A stretch of DNA of 64,000 nt, taken from NCBI GenBank assembly GCA_964016885.1, contig OZ024750.1, positions 8,618,001 through 8,682,000 on the forward strand, read 5' to 3'. The stretch is from Eledone cirrhosa (Eukaryota). Positions 5,461-41,008 of this stretch are shown here, one piece after another; position 1 is the stretch's first letter, and every line of letters begins with the position of its first letter. The notes below the pieces were generated by a model, which did not search any database, was not told where the DNA came from, and saw only the letters and a list, made by a program, of their open reading frames with translations. A program made the position numbers and the translations under genes.

Positions 5461-5473
5461 TATATATATATAT

Positions 5474-5747
5474 AACAAAGGAATTGTGGTAAGGAACCAG
5501 ATGGACCATAACGCACCAGAGTACTCAATACATAGGGTAGTAGTGTGAAATAGGAAAAAGTATGACCTCGACGGCAGAGCTCAAGCCGTTTCGACGGCTA
5601 TTTCTGGACAGTGTTTTCGCATCGTGCGGGTGAAGAAACTTCAACTGGGCGGAAAAGTCGGGATATGGCGTGGTAGAGTCGGAAAGTGGTCTACTACAGA
5701 GATAGGAGCTAAATAACAAAGGAAATAGCCGTCGAAACGGCTTGAGG

Positions 5748-5788
<41 letters not shown>

Positions 5789-5903
5789 ATTGAGCTCAGC
5801 CGTCGGGGTCCTACTCGTTCCGATTACCCACTCTACTACCCTAAGTATTGAGTACTTTGGTGCGTTATAGTCCATCTGGTTCCTTACCACATTTCCTTCG
5901 TTA
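5474..5903. mobile_element. Inverted-arm element in (TA)n, related to 14325-15474 (putative Penelope-like pLTR pair)
   Basis: 5474-5609 and 5722-5903 are reverse complements apart from a (CT)n insert at 5748-5788. Both arms match 14325-14460. Confidence 0.8.
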
Positions 5904-6452
5904 TATCTATCTATATATATATATATATAATTCTCACCGCTTCAAAAACCGAAAATTCCTCTTCGTACATTATACTTTGAAAATCGATATATTTGCGTGT
6001 TTGTATGTCGTGATATAGATATAAAAGCCACCTATGTAATTCCCAAATTTCAATTACATCTCCTGTCGTTATATATACATAGTTCACTCATTCTTAACCT
6101 CCCGATGACGACATCGTCTATAATTAACTATGATTCAACGTGCCTGGTACCGAAATTATTCTTTCAATGGTGACATTATAACAAAGTCTCATGAATTACA
6201 TGAAGACTCAATTATTACAGTATCAAGGAAACAATCACTGCACAAGAACACACAATTAAAATTCGTAAATTCGATACAAATGCTAAACCTATTGGCTTTA
6301 AATAAATCATACAATGCCTTCTCATGTAACTGTGTCTGGTTTACATCCTAAAAATGATCCTTCCGCCCCAGGAGCAGAAAATATAGCTATCTTCATTAGA
6401 AAATACAGTCGTCTAATAAGAGTTGTAATGCTTAAGTGTGACTGATTATAGC

Positions 6453-14274: not shown

Positions 14275-14326
<52 letters not shown>

Positions 14327-14417
14327 CGAAAGAAATATGGTAAGGAACCAGATGGACCATAACGCACCAAAGTACTCAATACTTAGGGTACTAGAGTGGG
14401 TAATAGGAACAAGTATG

Positions 14418-14513
14418 ACCCCGACGGCAGAGCTCAAGCCGTTTCGACGGCTAATTTTGGACTAAATAAGAATTTTTACCCTGGTATATAAATAGCCGAA
14501 CTTCTCAGGGGGT
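14418..14513 (-). ncRNA. Type I hammerhead ribozyme-like motif, variant core
   Basis: Stem I ACCCC/GGGGU, core CUGAGAA, stem II CGGCUA/UAGCCG, GAAA, stem III ACGGC/GCCGU. GUC site with the predicted cut between 14423 and 14422. Confidence 0.7.
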
Positions 14514-15364
14514 AATAGTTAAGGGCTGAAACACCCCATCTGCCGATTTTGTAAGGGGTTACCCCTGCTTACTAAGGTAGACGTAAATCTTTTATCTTTT
14601 CCTTCTCTCCCCCCCCCCCTTCTCTTCCTAGTCCTTTCACCCCAGAACTCCTTCCTTATCCTTATCACCTTTTCGCCTACCCCGATGCAGCCCATCGGTC
14701 CTTTGTAGCTTCAGTACCCCCCACCCCACCCTAATTTTAAGATAGAATTGGCCGATTACGCCTTTTACAGCAGATGTGTTAGACCCCAGTAAATTGTTTT
14801 CTTTCTGGTTGCCGCTCCATTTCTGAGATTTCTAAATTTCTTAGTGGTATTTTTGTATTAGTATCCTTGTATTAGTATTTCTGTATTAGTATTACCAATT
14901 AATATTTCGTATTAGTAATTTTGTAGTAATAATTTAGTATTTTTGTTTTTAACCTGTCATTGTAAGATAGCATTGGCTGATTACTAACTAACTATAGCAG
15001 TGGTGTTAGACCCCCACCGTATTGTGGAAGGGGAGTTGTAACCAGAAATTGTTTTTTATATATTTATTTCCTAATTTTTATAATGGTTTCGTTGTTTACT
15101 CCCTTTCGATTTACCTATTCTTTCAACTCCCCCTCCTCTTCTCCAGTACACTTTTCTCGACCTTCTATACACTATCCTTAGAATATGGTGTATATATTTA
15201 ACTTTCAACGCTTGACTGGGTTTCCCCCACTCCCTCTTTGTTCTACCGGCAAGTTCAGCTACCCCTACCTCCCACCAAATGCCATGATAGAATCATCTGT
15301 CTTTACAACATATTTTTTTTTGACCAATCCTTTTGACAATTACTATCTTCCCATATAAGGAATT

Positions 15365-15460
15365 ACCCCCTGAGAAGTTCGGCTACTTATTTACCAGGCT
15401 AAAAATTCTTATTTAGTCCAGAATTAGCCGTCGAAACGGCTTGAGCTCTGCCGTCGGGGT
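15365..15460 (+). ncRNA. Type I hammerhead ribozyme-like motif, variant core
   Basis: ACCCC(15365-69) CUGAGAA(15370-76) G..CGGCUA...UAGCCG.C GAAA(15433-36) CGGC uugagcucu GCCG UC(15454-55) GGGGU. Confidence 0.7.
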
Positions 15461-15470
15461 CATACTTGTT

Positions 15471-15513
<43 letters not shown>

Positions 15514-15615
15514 AAACACGTCTGATGGAATATTTAGTGTGAAGTAGTGAGAGAGTGAATCAACTTCAAATGAAAGATATAATCACTACTAAATAAATAA
15601 TATTTCTCCTGTATG

Positions 15616-15843
15616 TACGGATGTGAAACTTGGAGGACAACTAAGAAGATGCAGCAGGAGATCCAGACATTCTTTAACACCTGTCTGAGGTACATCTACA
15701 ACTTCAAATGGCCGAAGAAGATCAGAATCGAATATCTGTGGGAGTGAGCGGGACAGGAACCAGAACCAGTAGCAAAGCAATTCCTGTGGAGGAGTTCGAT
15801 TGGACATACTCCCAGGAAACCAGCATCCAGCACCACACGTTAA
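15616..15843 (+). mobile_element. RTE-clade LINE ORF2 fragment (post-RT domain)
   Basis: Translates YGCETWRTTKKMQQEIQTFFNTCLRYIYNFKWPKKIRIEYLWE*...IGHTPRKP, matching the RTE pattern LYG.ETW...CLR.I..I.WP...LW...IGH.LRK. Contains an internal stop. Confidence 0.9.
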
Positions 15844-15954
15844 TCCTATGCCATTACGGGCTGGAACATCTCGAAACTTGTTTCAAGGTCGTTAAGCAAC
15901 TGAGAATACACGATTCCTTTCTAGAGTGACCCCAGTCCTTTTTTTTTAGCCTAC

Positions 15955-36507: not shown

Positions 36508-36672
36508 AGGGCGGTGGATTGGCAGTATCGGTAGAGGGTCGGACGCCATGCTTTGCAGCATAGAGTTACCTCCCTTTATGATCTGAGTTTCATCCTTACA
36601 GGGTCGATAAAATAAAGTACCAGTAATACACTGCGATAATTGCTGGCCTTGTGCCAAAAGGAGAAACAATTA
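36508..36672 (+). mobile_element. SINE family A with B-box deletion
   Basis: CTGAGTT is joined directly to TCATCCTTAC. Confidence 0.88.
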
Positions 36673-36796
36673 TATATAATATATATATATAATATATATA
36701 TAATATATATATATATATAATATATATATAATATATATAATATATATATATATATAATATATATATATATATTATATATATATATATATAATATAT

Positions 36797-36838
<42 letters not shown>

Positions 36839-37108
36839 AATATATATATATATATAATATATATATATATATATTATATATATATATATATAATATATAT
36901 ATATATATAATATATATATATATATATAATATATATATATATATAATATATATATATATATAATATATATATATATATTATATATATATATATATAATAT
37001 ATATATAATATATATATATATATTATATATATATATATATAATATATATATATATATAATATATATATATATATAATATATATATATATATTATATATAT
37101 ATATATAT

Positions 37109-37151
<43 letters not shown>

Positions 37152-38880
37152 ATATTTAATATATTATATAGATATATTATATATATATATATTTAATATA
37201 TTATATAGATATATTATATATATATATATTTAATATATTATATAGATAAATTATATATATTATATATATATATATTTAATATATTATATAGATAAATTAT
37301 ATATATTATATATATATATATTTAATATATTATATAGATAAATTATATATATTATATATATATATTTAATATATTATATAGATATATTTAATATATTATA
37401 TAGATATATTTAATATATTATATAGATATATATTATATATATATATATATTATATATATATATATTTAATATATTATATAGATATATATTATATATATAT
37501 ATTATATAGATATTATATAGATATATTATATAGATATATATTATATAGATATATTATAGATATATTATCTATATATATATTATATATATAATATATATTA
37601 TATATATATAATGTGTATATATATATATAATATATCTATATAATATATATATATGATATATATATAATATATATATATGATATATATATAATATATATAT
37701 ATGATATATCTATATAATATATATATATGATATATCTATATAATATATCTATATGATATATATATAATATATATATATGATATATCTATATAATATATCT
37801 ATATAATATATATATAATATATATATATGATATATCTATATAATATATATATATGATATATCTATATAATATATATATATAATATATCTATATAATATAT
37901 ATATATAATATATCTATATAATATATATATAATATATCTATATAATATATCTATAATATATTTATATAATATATATATATATATAATATATATATATAAT
38001 ATATTAAATATATATATATATATATAATATATATATATATATAATATATATATATATATAATATATATATATATAATATATATATAATATATCTATATAA
38101 TATATTAAATATATATATATATAATATATCTATATAATATATTAAATATATATATATATAATATATCTATATAATATATTAAATATATATAATATATTAA
38201 ATATATATATATAATATATTAAATATATATCTATATAATATATTAAATATATATCTATATAATATATTAAATATATATCTATATAATATATTAAATATAT
38301 ATCTATATAATATATATATAATATATTAAATATATATATATAATATATTAAATATATATCTATATAATATATTAAATATATATCTATATAATATATTAAA
38401 TATATATCTATATAATATATTAAATATATATCTATATAATATATTAAATATATATCTATATATAATATATTAAATATATATCTATATAATATATTAAATA
38501 TATATCTATATAATATATTAAATATATATCTATATAATATATTAAATATATATCTATATTAAATATATATCTATATAATATATTAAATATATATCTATAT
38601 AATATATTAAATATATATCTATATAATATATTAAATATATATCTATATAATATATTAAATATATATCTATATATAATATATTTAATATATATATACATAT
38701 ATATATAATATATATATATAATATATCTATATAATATATATAATATATATATATATATAATATATCTATATAATATATTTAATATATATATACATATATA
38801 TATAATATATATATACATATATATATAATATATATATACATATATATATAATATATATATATATATAATATATTATATAT
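36672..38880. repeat. 2.2-kb AT-only compound array with 22-24 bp higher-order units
   Basis: Units TATATTTAATATATTATATAGATA on the left and TATCTATATAATATATTAAATATA on the right. Confidence 0.9.
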
Positions 38881-39100
38881 CACAGAATGTGTGACGAAAG
38901 AACTTTGACAATATATAAACAACCATCTGGTTGTGGAACCAACCAACCGGAAATTTATAAATTCCTAAATTTATAAATTTATTATAATAAATGGAAGTGA
39001 AAGCAACTGGTGTGTGTGTTTCTTATTGGCAACATGACCCTCCCAAAGTATAACAATATCGGTTTCAACACACGTTTTCAGATAAAGAATCTTGCTAAAC
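38881..39100 (-). mobile_element. Short repeat embedded in AT arrays, same family as 53641-53782
   Basis: Reverse complement GTTTAGCAAGATTCTT...TGTTGAAACCGATATTGTTATA.TT.GGG...CATGTTGCCAA matches 53641 onward. Confidence 0.7.
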
Positions 39101-39219
39101 ATATATATATATATATATATATATAAAATCTATATATATAAGATATATATATATATATATATATAAGATATATATATATATATCTTATATATATATATAT
39201 AAAATATATATATATATAT

Positions 39220-39425
39220 TAGAAAGTGAGGTTTTTTTACAAAATGAAAAATAACCGAGGTGTCCTACACGAGTGGAAGTATAAAGAAAAAGAGATGAAA
39301 TCGAAAATGCAACTGAAGTCTTATTTTTTTTTAAAATATATATATTTATTTGGTTCCTTTAACGGTTTCGCAGTTCTGCTTTTCAAAAGATGAGTTGAGA
39401 TGGAGGGTCTGTGGTTTTTCTCTTA
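39220..39425 (-). mobile_element. Short insert in (TA)n carrying a minimal hammerhead (Penelope pLTR-like)
   Basis: ~200 bp of complex sequence bounded by TA arrays, containing the motif at 39356-39390. Confidence 0.55.
39356..39390 (-). ncRNA. Minimal hammerhead motif, U3-A8 variant
   Basis: UCUU-UUGAAAA-GCAG aa CUGC-GAAA-CCGU-UA-AAGG. Stem I is UCUU/AAGG. Confidence 0.55.
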
Positions 39426-39458
39426 TATATATATATAAAATATATATATATAAGATAT

Positions 39459-39522
<64 letters not shown>

Positions 39523-39536
39523 TATATATATATAAA

Positions 39537-39570
<34 letters not shown>

Positions 39571-39582
39571 TATATATATAAA

Positions 39583-39641
<59 letters not shown>

Positions 39642-39658
39642 TATATATATATATATAT

Positions 39659-39755
<97 letters not shown>

Positions 39756-40225
39756 TATATATGATATATATAATATATATACTATATATATTATATATAT
39801 ATATATAAGATATATATAATAATATATATACTATATATATTATATATATATATATAAGATATATATAATAATATATATACTATATATATTATATATATAT
39901 ATATAAGATATATATAATAATATATATACTATATATATTATATATATATATATAAGATATATATAATAATATATATACTATATATATTATATATATATAT
40001 ATAAGATATATATAATAATATATATACTATATATATTATATATATATATATAAGATATATATAATAATATATATACTATATATATTATATATATATATAT
40101 AAGATATATATAATAATATATATACTATATATATTATATATATATATATAAGATATATATAATAATATATATACTATATATATTATATATATATATATAA
40201 GATATATATAATAATATATATACTA

Positions 40226-40264
<39 letters not shown>

Positions 40265-40622
40265 TATATATGATATATATATATATAAGATATATATAAT
40301 AATATATATACTATATATATTATATATATATATTATATATACTATATATATTATATATATATATTATATATACTATATATATTATATATATATATTATAT
40401 ATATATATATATATATAATATATTATATATGATATATATATATATAAGATATATATAATAATATATATACTATATATATTATATATATATATTATATATA
40501 CTATATATATTATATATATATATTATATATACTATATATATTATATATATATATTATATATATATATATATATATAATATATATTATATATATATAATAT
40601 ATATGTATAATATATGTATAAT
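39426..40622. repeat. AT-rich array including a ~48-bp unit minisatellite (…AAGATATATATAATAATATATATACTATATATATT…)
   Basis: Regularly spaced single G and C bases at 39760-40230. Confidence 0.9.
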
Positions 40623-41008
40623 ATTGCATAGAAAATGCTCTTATAGTATTTATAATTCATCAGCAAACAAAGCCGTCTACAAGCTGCAAATATGATACAT
40701 ATTGTTTAGCCAAATTTACTGAGCATTTGCTAAAAGTTGAAAGAATTATTTACAAATCATATTTATAAGCTTTGTCATAACAATCACAATTCAATGAATT
40801 TCAATGTGATGTGAATAAAAATAAAATATATTCTTATTGGATCTGATTTTTTAAAAAACACTTCGTATGCTTTATCTGAATGGTCTCTTAGTAGTCTGTG
40901 GTAATAAGTTTTCAATGCATCATCTTATGTTTCTATTTATTTATATATTAATATAATTATTTGTCTATCTGTTAGTCTATCCATTTATGTATCTATCTAT
41001 TTATCTGT

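What the first reader, a model, noticed from the sequence alone, without database searches (positions are those of the whole stretch)
14325..15474. ORF-less 1.15-kb element bracketed by two outward-facing hammerhead ribozyme folds, inserted in (TA)n
Seen: the 113-bp inverted arms (14404-14516 / 15362-15474) each fold as a type I hammerhead. Each has a 5-bp stem I, a long stem II, GAAA, a 5-bp stem III with palindromic GAGCUC in its loop, and a GUC site. All 4 arm mismatches fall in distal stem II, none in the core or stems I/III. Known: Penelope-like elements carry hammerheads in pseudo-LTRs that can be inverted, whereas metazoan retrozymes carry type I hammerheads in direct tandem repeats. 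Inference: this is a non-autonomous, microsatellite-targeting family with one ribozyme per strand polarity. A transcript from either strand could self-cleave near its 3' end, and the arms could fold into a panhandle.
Basis: partly seen in the sequence, partly recalled or inferred. Interest (0 to 1): 0.75.

Follow-up and report, generated by a model that had tools for sequence, protein, structure and literature searches.

The report
Hydra-type Penelope stub, recorded ribozyme cuts
This stretch is a shortened, back-to-back copy of the tail end of a common protein-coding jumping gene, a known layout, but across the genome hundreds of its relatives begin at exactly the letter where its self-cutting RNA motif is predicted to cut, which likely records that cutting in living cells.

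Summary
The inverted arms and hammerhead-like motifs are real, but this is not a non-autonomous family with one ribozyme per strand. It is one 5'-truncated insertion of an autonomous Hydra-clade Penelope-like element: a forward 3'UTR/pLTR (14521-15474) plus an inverted, shorter pLTR end with an 80-nt tail (14326-14516), in (TA)n. Sister copies run into a 722-aa TERT-like RT plus GIY-YIG ORF. The same layout is published (Penelope-13_HM). The family-wide record is the interesting part. 642 copies start exactly at the predicted cut site, against 50-197 at the four neighbouring positions. In the youngest subfamily 26 of 100 such hits are arm pairs that both start there. A larger pile-up lies inside loop II, a likely transcription start. 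The cut-site peak is clear for U3-A8 copies and inconclusive for this window's subfamily. No RNA data or assay was available. The scan noted the loop II stop (same genome) and Hydra end pairs (another genome) before.

The parts
14278..14325 (.). (TA)n target, left part
14326..14405 (-). 80-nt tail between the two 3' end sites; its first 3 nt (TAT) are shared with the (TA)n target. In full-length tandems it continues into the 5'UTR and ORF
14404..14516 (-). Inverted 5'-truncated pLTR end with the second hammerhead copy (core starts at 14508, predicted cut after 14423)
14508..14520 (+). Inversion junction: GGGGGTA matches the G-run at the ORF end of sister copies, followed by a few untemplated bases (14517-14520)
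14521..15474 (+). Forward copy: 3'UTR/pLTR of the Hydra-clade element, truncated just past the ORF end, with a private 102-bp deletion at 15019/15020
15365..15460 (+). Type I hammerhead: stem I 15365-15369/15456-15460, core CUGAGAA 15370-15376 (C3·A8), stem II 15380-15385/15425-15430, GAAA 15433-15436, stem III 15436-15440/15450-15454, predicted cut after C15455
15415..15421 (+). Main 5' end of short family copies (AGTCC, inside loop II); likely transcription start (inferred)
15473..15510 (.). (TA)n target, right part; the forward copy ends at the tail-less site

Best explanation
The 1.15-kb stretch is one 5'-truncated, ORF-less insertion of an autonomous Hydra-clade Penelope-like retrotransposon, made of a forward pLTR and an inverted shorter pLTR end with a tail, likely produced when the element's enzyme cut a (TA)n run and primed reverse transcription from both DNA strands at two fixed points 80 nt apart on its RNA. 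Shown: family identity, the ORF, the two end sites, one tail per inverted pair, and covariation of the hammerhead across subfamilies. Inferred: twin priming; joining of the two cDNAs through the G-run match; that transcription starts inside loop II; and that the family's hammerhead cuts a small share of RNAs in vivo, leaving copies that begin at the scissile bond. The two opposed hammerheads are a by-product. This copy's own ribozyme (C3·A8) is probably weak or dead.
For: Sister copies continue into RT and GIY-YIG coding sequence. 11 of 14 long-ORF loci have open frames of 776-819 aa, a 722-aa ORF from the ATG in L061. The model (pLDDT 93) has TERT as best fold match, E 8e-9. Hydra motifs are present and conserved in 115 aligned homologues. 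94 of 96 short inverted pairs and 7 of 7 window-like pairs have exactly one tail. The window's long arm lacks the tail and its short arm lacks the 850-nt body, so neither arm can be a fold-back copy of the other. Covariation on 22 rows: 3-8 pair U-A 13, U-G 4, C-G 2, unpaired 3; three stem II pairs change on both sides. Cut-site starts number 642, against 197, 170, 113 and 50 at -2, -1, +1 and +2 nt. 30 of 30 inspected ends are true truncations and 23 of 30 have no G microhomology.
Against: No RNA run was available and nothing was assayed. Stem III shows no two-sided change and stem I only one, in a possibly misaligned row. The rows are related and were partly picked by stem motifs. The cut site is also the start of a G-run and lies next to the base of stem III, and the control patterns do not have identical pass rates. 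Per copy, cut-site starts are similar in the C3·A8 subfamily (45 of 3,026) and the U3-A8 subfamily (256 of 15,634), which a purely cis-catalytic reading does not predict. In the former only 31 of 40 inspected are true truncations and 19 of 40 lack G microhomology. Target-site duplication cannot be read in (TA)n.
Confidence: 0.85

Rival explanations
1. A non-autonomous family built with one working hammerhead per strand, so that either transcript self-cleaves and the arms form a panhandle.
For: Two complete motifs face outward, and all four arm differences avoid the core and stems (about 1.4% by chance if counted after the fact). Outward pairs are common: 17 pairs among the first 100 hits.
Against: No second copy has this layout. 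Spacing varies about twenty-fold. The middle is a 3'UTR with a private deletion. The core has C3·A8 and the active fold holds about 3% of the ensemble. The same layout is published as an inverted truncated copy.
Confidence: 0.04
2. Same element, but the pile-up at the cut site is a reverse-transcriptase stop or a joining preference at the G-run or the base of stem III, not ribozyme cutting.
For: The site begins a GGGG run next to stem III. 7 of 30 mixed and 12 of 40 window-subfamily ends could take one to three G from the partner arm. The C3·A8 subfamily also has such copies. Frangieh 2024 saw no RNA reads ending at the cut site of another PLE.
Against: A stop before stem III should include C17, and that position has 113 copies against 642. 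Neighbouring positions inside the G-run are 3-4 times lower. 13 arm pairs among the first 100 youngest-subfamily hits both start at the cut site, joined by one extra base. Among the other 74 hits the preceding base is T 49, A 25 (p 0.007), as expected from an added A at a template end.
Confidence: 0.3
3. Same element, but the loop II pile-up is a structural or protein-bound block to reverse transcription, not the RNA's 5' end.
For: Ends are spread over about 8 nt. 8 of 10 mapped long-ORF copies run past the site. The extra-G signal is confounded by partner arms (16 of 40 G cases).
Against: Loop II is weakly structured and differs between subfamilies, while TYAGTY is kept. 10,886 copies have a non-template base directly before AGTCC (a few are a full-length variant with C there, 5 of 32 C cases). 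One full-ORF copy starts at +2 of the site (L065). Unexplained preceding bases are G 24 of 40, C 9 of 32, A 7 of 9.
Confidence: 0.3
4. The arms are terminal inverted repeats of a TA-targeting DNA transposon (MITE).
For: 113-bp inverted repeats near both ends, TA flanks, no ORF.
Against: The left arm is internal by 80 nt. Copies are 5'-truncated at many points, occur in direct tandem, and are attached to an RT ORF.
Confidence: 0.01

Closest known systems
Hydra clade of C-terminal EN+ Penelope-like elements, especially Penelope-13_HM (Craig et al. 2021, PMC8557442; section 11, passages and supplement part 2 of 59 read)
   Same: RWK/DKT/CxCx5C/CxxC/CxH motifs, (TA)n target, hammerhead near the 3' end. 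Penelope-13_HM is listed with a 5'-truncated inverted copy and the same hammerhead on both strands.
   Different: The unit is about 3.55 kb (published units 1.1-3.0 kb) with a 1.2-kb UTR. All 26 Hydra hammerhead rows in File S2 have C3-G8 cores and loops II of 3-10 nt; here the core is U3-A8 or C3·A8 and loop II is 37-39 nt. The listed Hydra-1_oBim hammerhead is a different sequence. The tail is 80 nt, against the 30-40 nt usually described.
Poseidon_Ac (PAc) internal initiation at two sites (Frangieh et al. 2024, PMC11167929; parts 1-3 of 4 read)
   Same: Two fixed 3' ends that define the tail. Both target strands are cut and extended in vitro. The hammerhead is not needed for insertion.
   Different: There the start sites are not homologous to the target; here both are followed by TAT, matching (TA)n. 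There no RNA reads ended at the cut site; here genomic copies pile up at it.
U3-A8 hammerhead variant of Schistosoma Cercyon PLEs (Cervera and de la Pena 2014, PMC4209133; parts 1-2 of 4 read; Perreault et al. 2011, PMC3088659, passages)
   Same: U3-A8 in place of C3-G8, G10.1-C11.1, palindromic loop III. Pairs of hammerheads 100-700 bp apart on opposite strands were already noted.
   Different: Stem III is a full 5 bp, so a monomer could fold. All four states C-G, U-G, U-A and C·A occur within one genome's lineage.
Metazoan non-LTR retrozymes (Li et al. 2026 preprint 10.64898/2026.07.22.740005, part 1 of 5 read)
   Same: Type I hammerhead related to PLE pLTRs, non-coding.
   Different: Retrozymes are direct tandem non-coding units. 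This is a single inverted pair derived from a coding element.

Membership tests
EN+ Penelope-like element | Single ORF with telomerase-like RT | tested here: met
   722-aa ORF in sister copies, FDI / MGA / YRDD motifs, best fold match TERT. Pfam and PDB sequence searches miss it.
EN+ Penelope-like element | C-terminal GIY-YIG endonuclease | tested here: met
   VIY591...YIG606 with conserved Y, G, E and N; one homologue carries PF01541. Assigned by motif; the fold search listed no GIY-YIG chain in its top 50.
EN+ Penelope-like element | Partial tandems forming pLTRs, inverted 5'-truncated copy, one-sided tail | tested here: met
Hydra clade | RWK motif, DKT for DKG, no GxKF/Y | tested here: met
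   RWR37 (K in 70% of aligned homologues), DKT117, GxKF/Y absent
Hydra clade | CxCx5C linker; CxxC and CxH around the EN's E and N | tested here: met
   C572-C574-C580, C670xxC673, C698xH700, each conserved in 97-100% of 115 rows
Hydra clade | (TA)n insertion preference | tested here: met
Hydra clade | Placement in the Hydra branch of an RT tree | not tested
   No named reference proteins were available as tool output.
Type I hammerhead ribozyme | Three stems around CUGANGA / GAAA / NUH | tested here: inconclusive
   Met at family level with the U3-A8 variant; this copy has C3·A8. No Rfam match.
Type I hammerhead ribozyme | Covariation in stems and the 3-8 pair | tested here: met
   3-8 pair and three stem II pairs change on both sides, 0 of 500 shuffles reach the score; stem III shows none; rows are related.
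Type I hammerhead ribozyme | Self-cleavage after H17 | not testable with these tools
   Indirect genomic footprint only.
Non-LTR retrozyme | Non-coding direct tandem units, each with a hammerhead | tested here: not met
   Tandem units here are 3.5 kb and coding; the window copy is an inverted pair.
MITE / TIR DNA transposon | Terminal inverted repeats at both very ends, uniform length | tested here: not met
   One arm is 80 nt internal and lengths vary.

The most novel reading that the evidence does not exclude
The insertions of this family are a DNA record of both 5' ends of its RNA: a capped start inside hammerhead loop II and a ribozyme-cut end. The primary transcript then begins with only the substrate half of a hammerhead, which the catalytic half at the RNA's own 3' end (or another copy's RNA) completes. 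Such a split ribozyme could trim both ends to a unit-length RNA that closes into a circle, giving the tandem and more-than-unit insertions, and could let subfamilies with a broken C3·A8 core still be cut in trans.
Probability: 0.25. Interest if true: 0.75.

Novelty: new variant of a known kind. Interest (0 to 1): 0.45.

Why it matters
The locus itself is an ordinary dead fragment with a published layout. What matters is the family. Whether Penelope hammerheads cut in vivo is open: Cervera 2014 says in vivo evidence is lacking, and Frangieh 2024 found no RNA ends at the cut site. Here a young family with intact ORFs leaves a single-nucleotide excess of copies at the predicted scissile bond, and offers natural core variants (C-G, U-G, U-A, C·A) as built-in controls. 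That makes the question directly testable with short RNAs and one protein. No paper reporting such a genomic pile-up turned up in searches. Lunse et al. 2017 could not be read, and most supplements were not seen.

Tried and rejected
Rfam: no hammerhead match. Pfam on the ORF: nothing above cut-off. PDB sequence searches: nothing relevant. Single-sequence fold: pLDDT 31, discarded. No RNA holder listed, so expression is untested. Contigs of two runs of unknown kind and one sample show joints clustering at 15410-15421, but may be the source sample and are not counted as independent. I first assigned the element to Neptune from the linker; the Hydra criteria fit better. I first read the listed hits as showing no cut-site peak in the window's subfamily (2 of 100); exact counts overturned that (45 of 3,026), and inspection left it inconclusive. 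Reading the core as CUGA-GA with N7 deleted: rejected as the family's register because position 7 varies (G, U, C, A) in the seven-letter reading; it cannot be excluded for this subfamily alone. Twin hairpins behind the two end sites (earlier scan note): weak here, z -2.1, -0.5, -1.8 and 0.3, with a different fold at site 1. Extra G from a cap: suggestive only. In one search the values scored against reference B are 1 nt too long and reference C came out empty; the fifth fold (family C) did not run.

Full report
Observation. The arms are real: 14403-14516 and 15362-15475, 96% complementary, between two (TA)n runs. Each has a 5-bp stem I, GAAA, a 5-bp stem III with a palindromic loop, and GUC, with the predicted cut after C15455. 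The core, however, reads CUGAGAA, which sets C3 against A8. Stem II is 6 bp plus one pair, closing a 39-nt loop. The four arm differences lie in that loop and are private changes from the subfamily majority. The arms fold no better than shuffles, the hammerhead fold holds about 3% of the ensemble against 35% for a copy of the youngest subfamily, and Rfam does not recognise them.

What it is. The genome search returned 142 matches from the 40 best of 6,422 candidates; only the window matches end to end. Sister copies carry a 102-bp segment that the window lacks and continue upstream into coding sequence. A protein search found many near-identical young copies; 11 of the 14 fetched for long frames have 776-819 open codons. 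The 722-aa ORF has no Pfam hit, but its alignment-based model (pLDDT 93) matches TERT best. It carries the motifs that Craig et al. 2021 give for the Hydra clade, conserved across 115 aligned sequences. The window therefore holds a forward 3'UTR/pLTR (14521-15474) and an inverted shorter end with an 80-nt tail (14326-14516), joined at a G-run match. In tandems the tail continues into the 5'UTR. Craig's supplement lists Penelope-13_HM with an inverted truncated copy and the same hammerhead on both strands, and Cervera 2014 noted opposite-strand pairs. The layout is known.

How it was likely made. Copies end at two fixed sites, both followed by TAT. 94 of 96 short inverted pairs carry exactly one tail. 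In the window the long arm lacks the tail and the short arm lacks the body, so two separate priming events are needed. This fits the in vitro behaviour of Poseidon_Ac, which cuts and extends both strands and starts at two RNA sites. Twin priming is inferred here, not shown.

The hammerhead across the family. Exact core counts in the G-N-U-CGGCUA context are U3-A8 2,868, C3·A8 1,433 and C3-G8 10 (the last pattern was slightly looser). An older family (414 matches) has mostly UUGAUAA, with minorities UUGAGGA and CUGAGGA. On 22 hand-picked rows the 3-8 pair is U-A 13, U-G 4, C-G 2 and unpaired 3, and three stem II pairs change on both sides; stem III shows no such change. The window's C3·A8 is most simply a derived mismatch. 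Its subfamily is older (median pairwise identity 94.6% among copies picked for likeness to the window, against 97.9%) yet left over 3,000 ends, so an intact 3-8 pair was not needed to amplify.

Where copies begin. The tail start has 42,304 exact matches. Of 91 tail-anchored copies taken in order from contig C1, only 8 extend past the hammerhead, and 43 begin about 52-59 nt upstream of the first end site, inside loop II. 10,886 copies have a non-template base right before AGTCC. One full-ORF copy begins at +2 of that site, while 8 of 10 run past it and so needed a longer-than-unit template. An unexplained G precedes the site in 24 of 40 G cases, against 9 of 32 for C and 7 of 9 for A. An initiator-like motif (consensus recalled, not from a call) and this G suggest a capped transcription start; D. 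virilis Penelope has an internal promoter in its pLTR. An earlier scan note reached the same reading on other DNA of this genome.

The cut site. Patterns that require two non-template bases upstream give 197, 170, 642, 113 and 50 copies beginning 15, 16, 17, 18 and 19 nt upstream of the first end site; 17 is the predicted scissile bond. All 30 inspected ends are true truncations; 7 could take G from the partner arm and 23 could not. In the youngest subfamily 256 of 15,634 ends start there, against about 24 and 27 at the flanking positions (scaled from the 100 listed hits). 13 pairs among its first 100 hits have both arms starting there, joined by one base. In the window's subfamily 45 of 3,026 match; 31 of 40 inspected are true and 19 of 40 are free of microhomology, against about 24 and 10 uninspected controls, so the peak is inconclusive there. 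I put in vivo cutting at about 65% for U3-A8 copies. A G-run or structure stop remains the main rival, and other scan notes on other genomes found such peaks weak or explained by short matches.

Verdict. The locus is an ordinary Hydra-clade stub with a probably impaired ribozyme. The family differs from published Hydra elements in its U3-A8 core, long loop II and 80-nt tail, and carries a testable genomic footprint of cleavage. Papers seen: PMC8557442 (passages, section 11, supplement part 2 of 59), PMC4209133 (parts 1-2 of 4), PMC11167929 (parts 1-3 of 4), the 2026 preprint (part 1 of 5), and passages of PMC6765202, PMC3846280, PMC2377424, PMC3088659 and PMC13282606. Lunse et al. 2017 was seen only as a title in a reference list; it and unseen supplements may describe similar core variants.

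Noticed in passing
window 5469-5904: A second insertion of the same family between (TA)n runs: half hammerhead plus tail on each side, an inverted piece of the 5'UTR, and a (CT)n run sitting in loop III with TTGAG on both sides.
   Followed up: partly
genome-wide; e.g. L211, L243, L264: The commonest product of the family is a roughly 200-bp near-palindrome of two half hammerheads with one tail; about nine in ten tail-bearing copies lack the catalytic half.
   Followed up: yes
G000:C1:91473243-91493732: Five hammerhead cores in direct tandem at 3,542-3,543 bp spacing plus one inverted copy, i.e. a multi-unit insertion.
   Followed up: no
L061:2891-5059: The ORF has 2,006 homologues at E<=1e-10 among 7,998 scored candidates, about 40% identical and mostly unnamed, yet no Pfam RT or GIY-YIG hit; the Hydra clade looks far larger than the 27 families listed in 2021.
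   Followed up: partly
L075, L076, L083: Three copies with the window subfamily's 3' tag share C3-G8 and an AGAAATAG variant, possibly a small lineage with a canonical core.
   Followed up: no
G000:C2:276983081-277001116: Six cut-site matches with the same two preceding bases within 18 kb, probably a local duplication; counted as six.
   Followed up: no
window 15601-15930: Short frames with a YGCETW-like motif resemble a decayed LINE reverse-transcriptase end (resemblance recalled, not tested).
   Followed up: no
window 36671-40624: A 4-kb degenerate (TA)n array, GC 9-13%.
   Followed up: no
L115-L144: A still more diverged family with the same tail and half hammerhead, also mostly as tiny inverted pairs; its catalytic half was not recovered.
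   Followed up: partly
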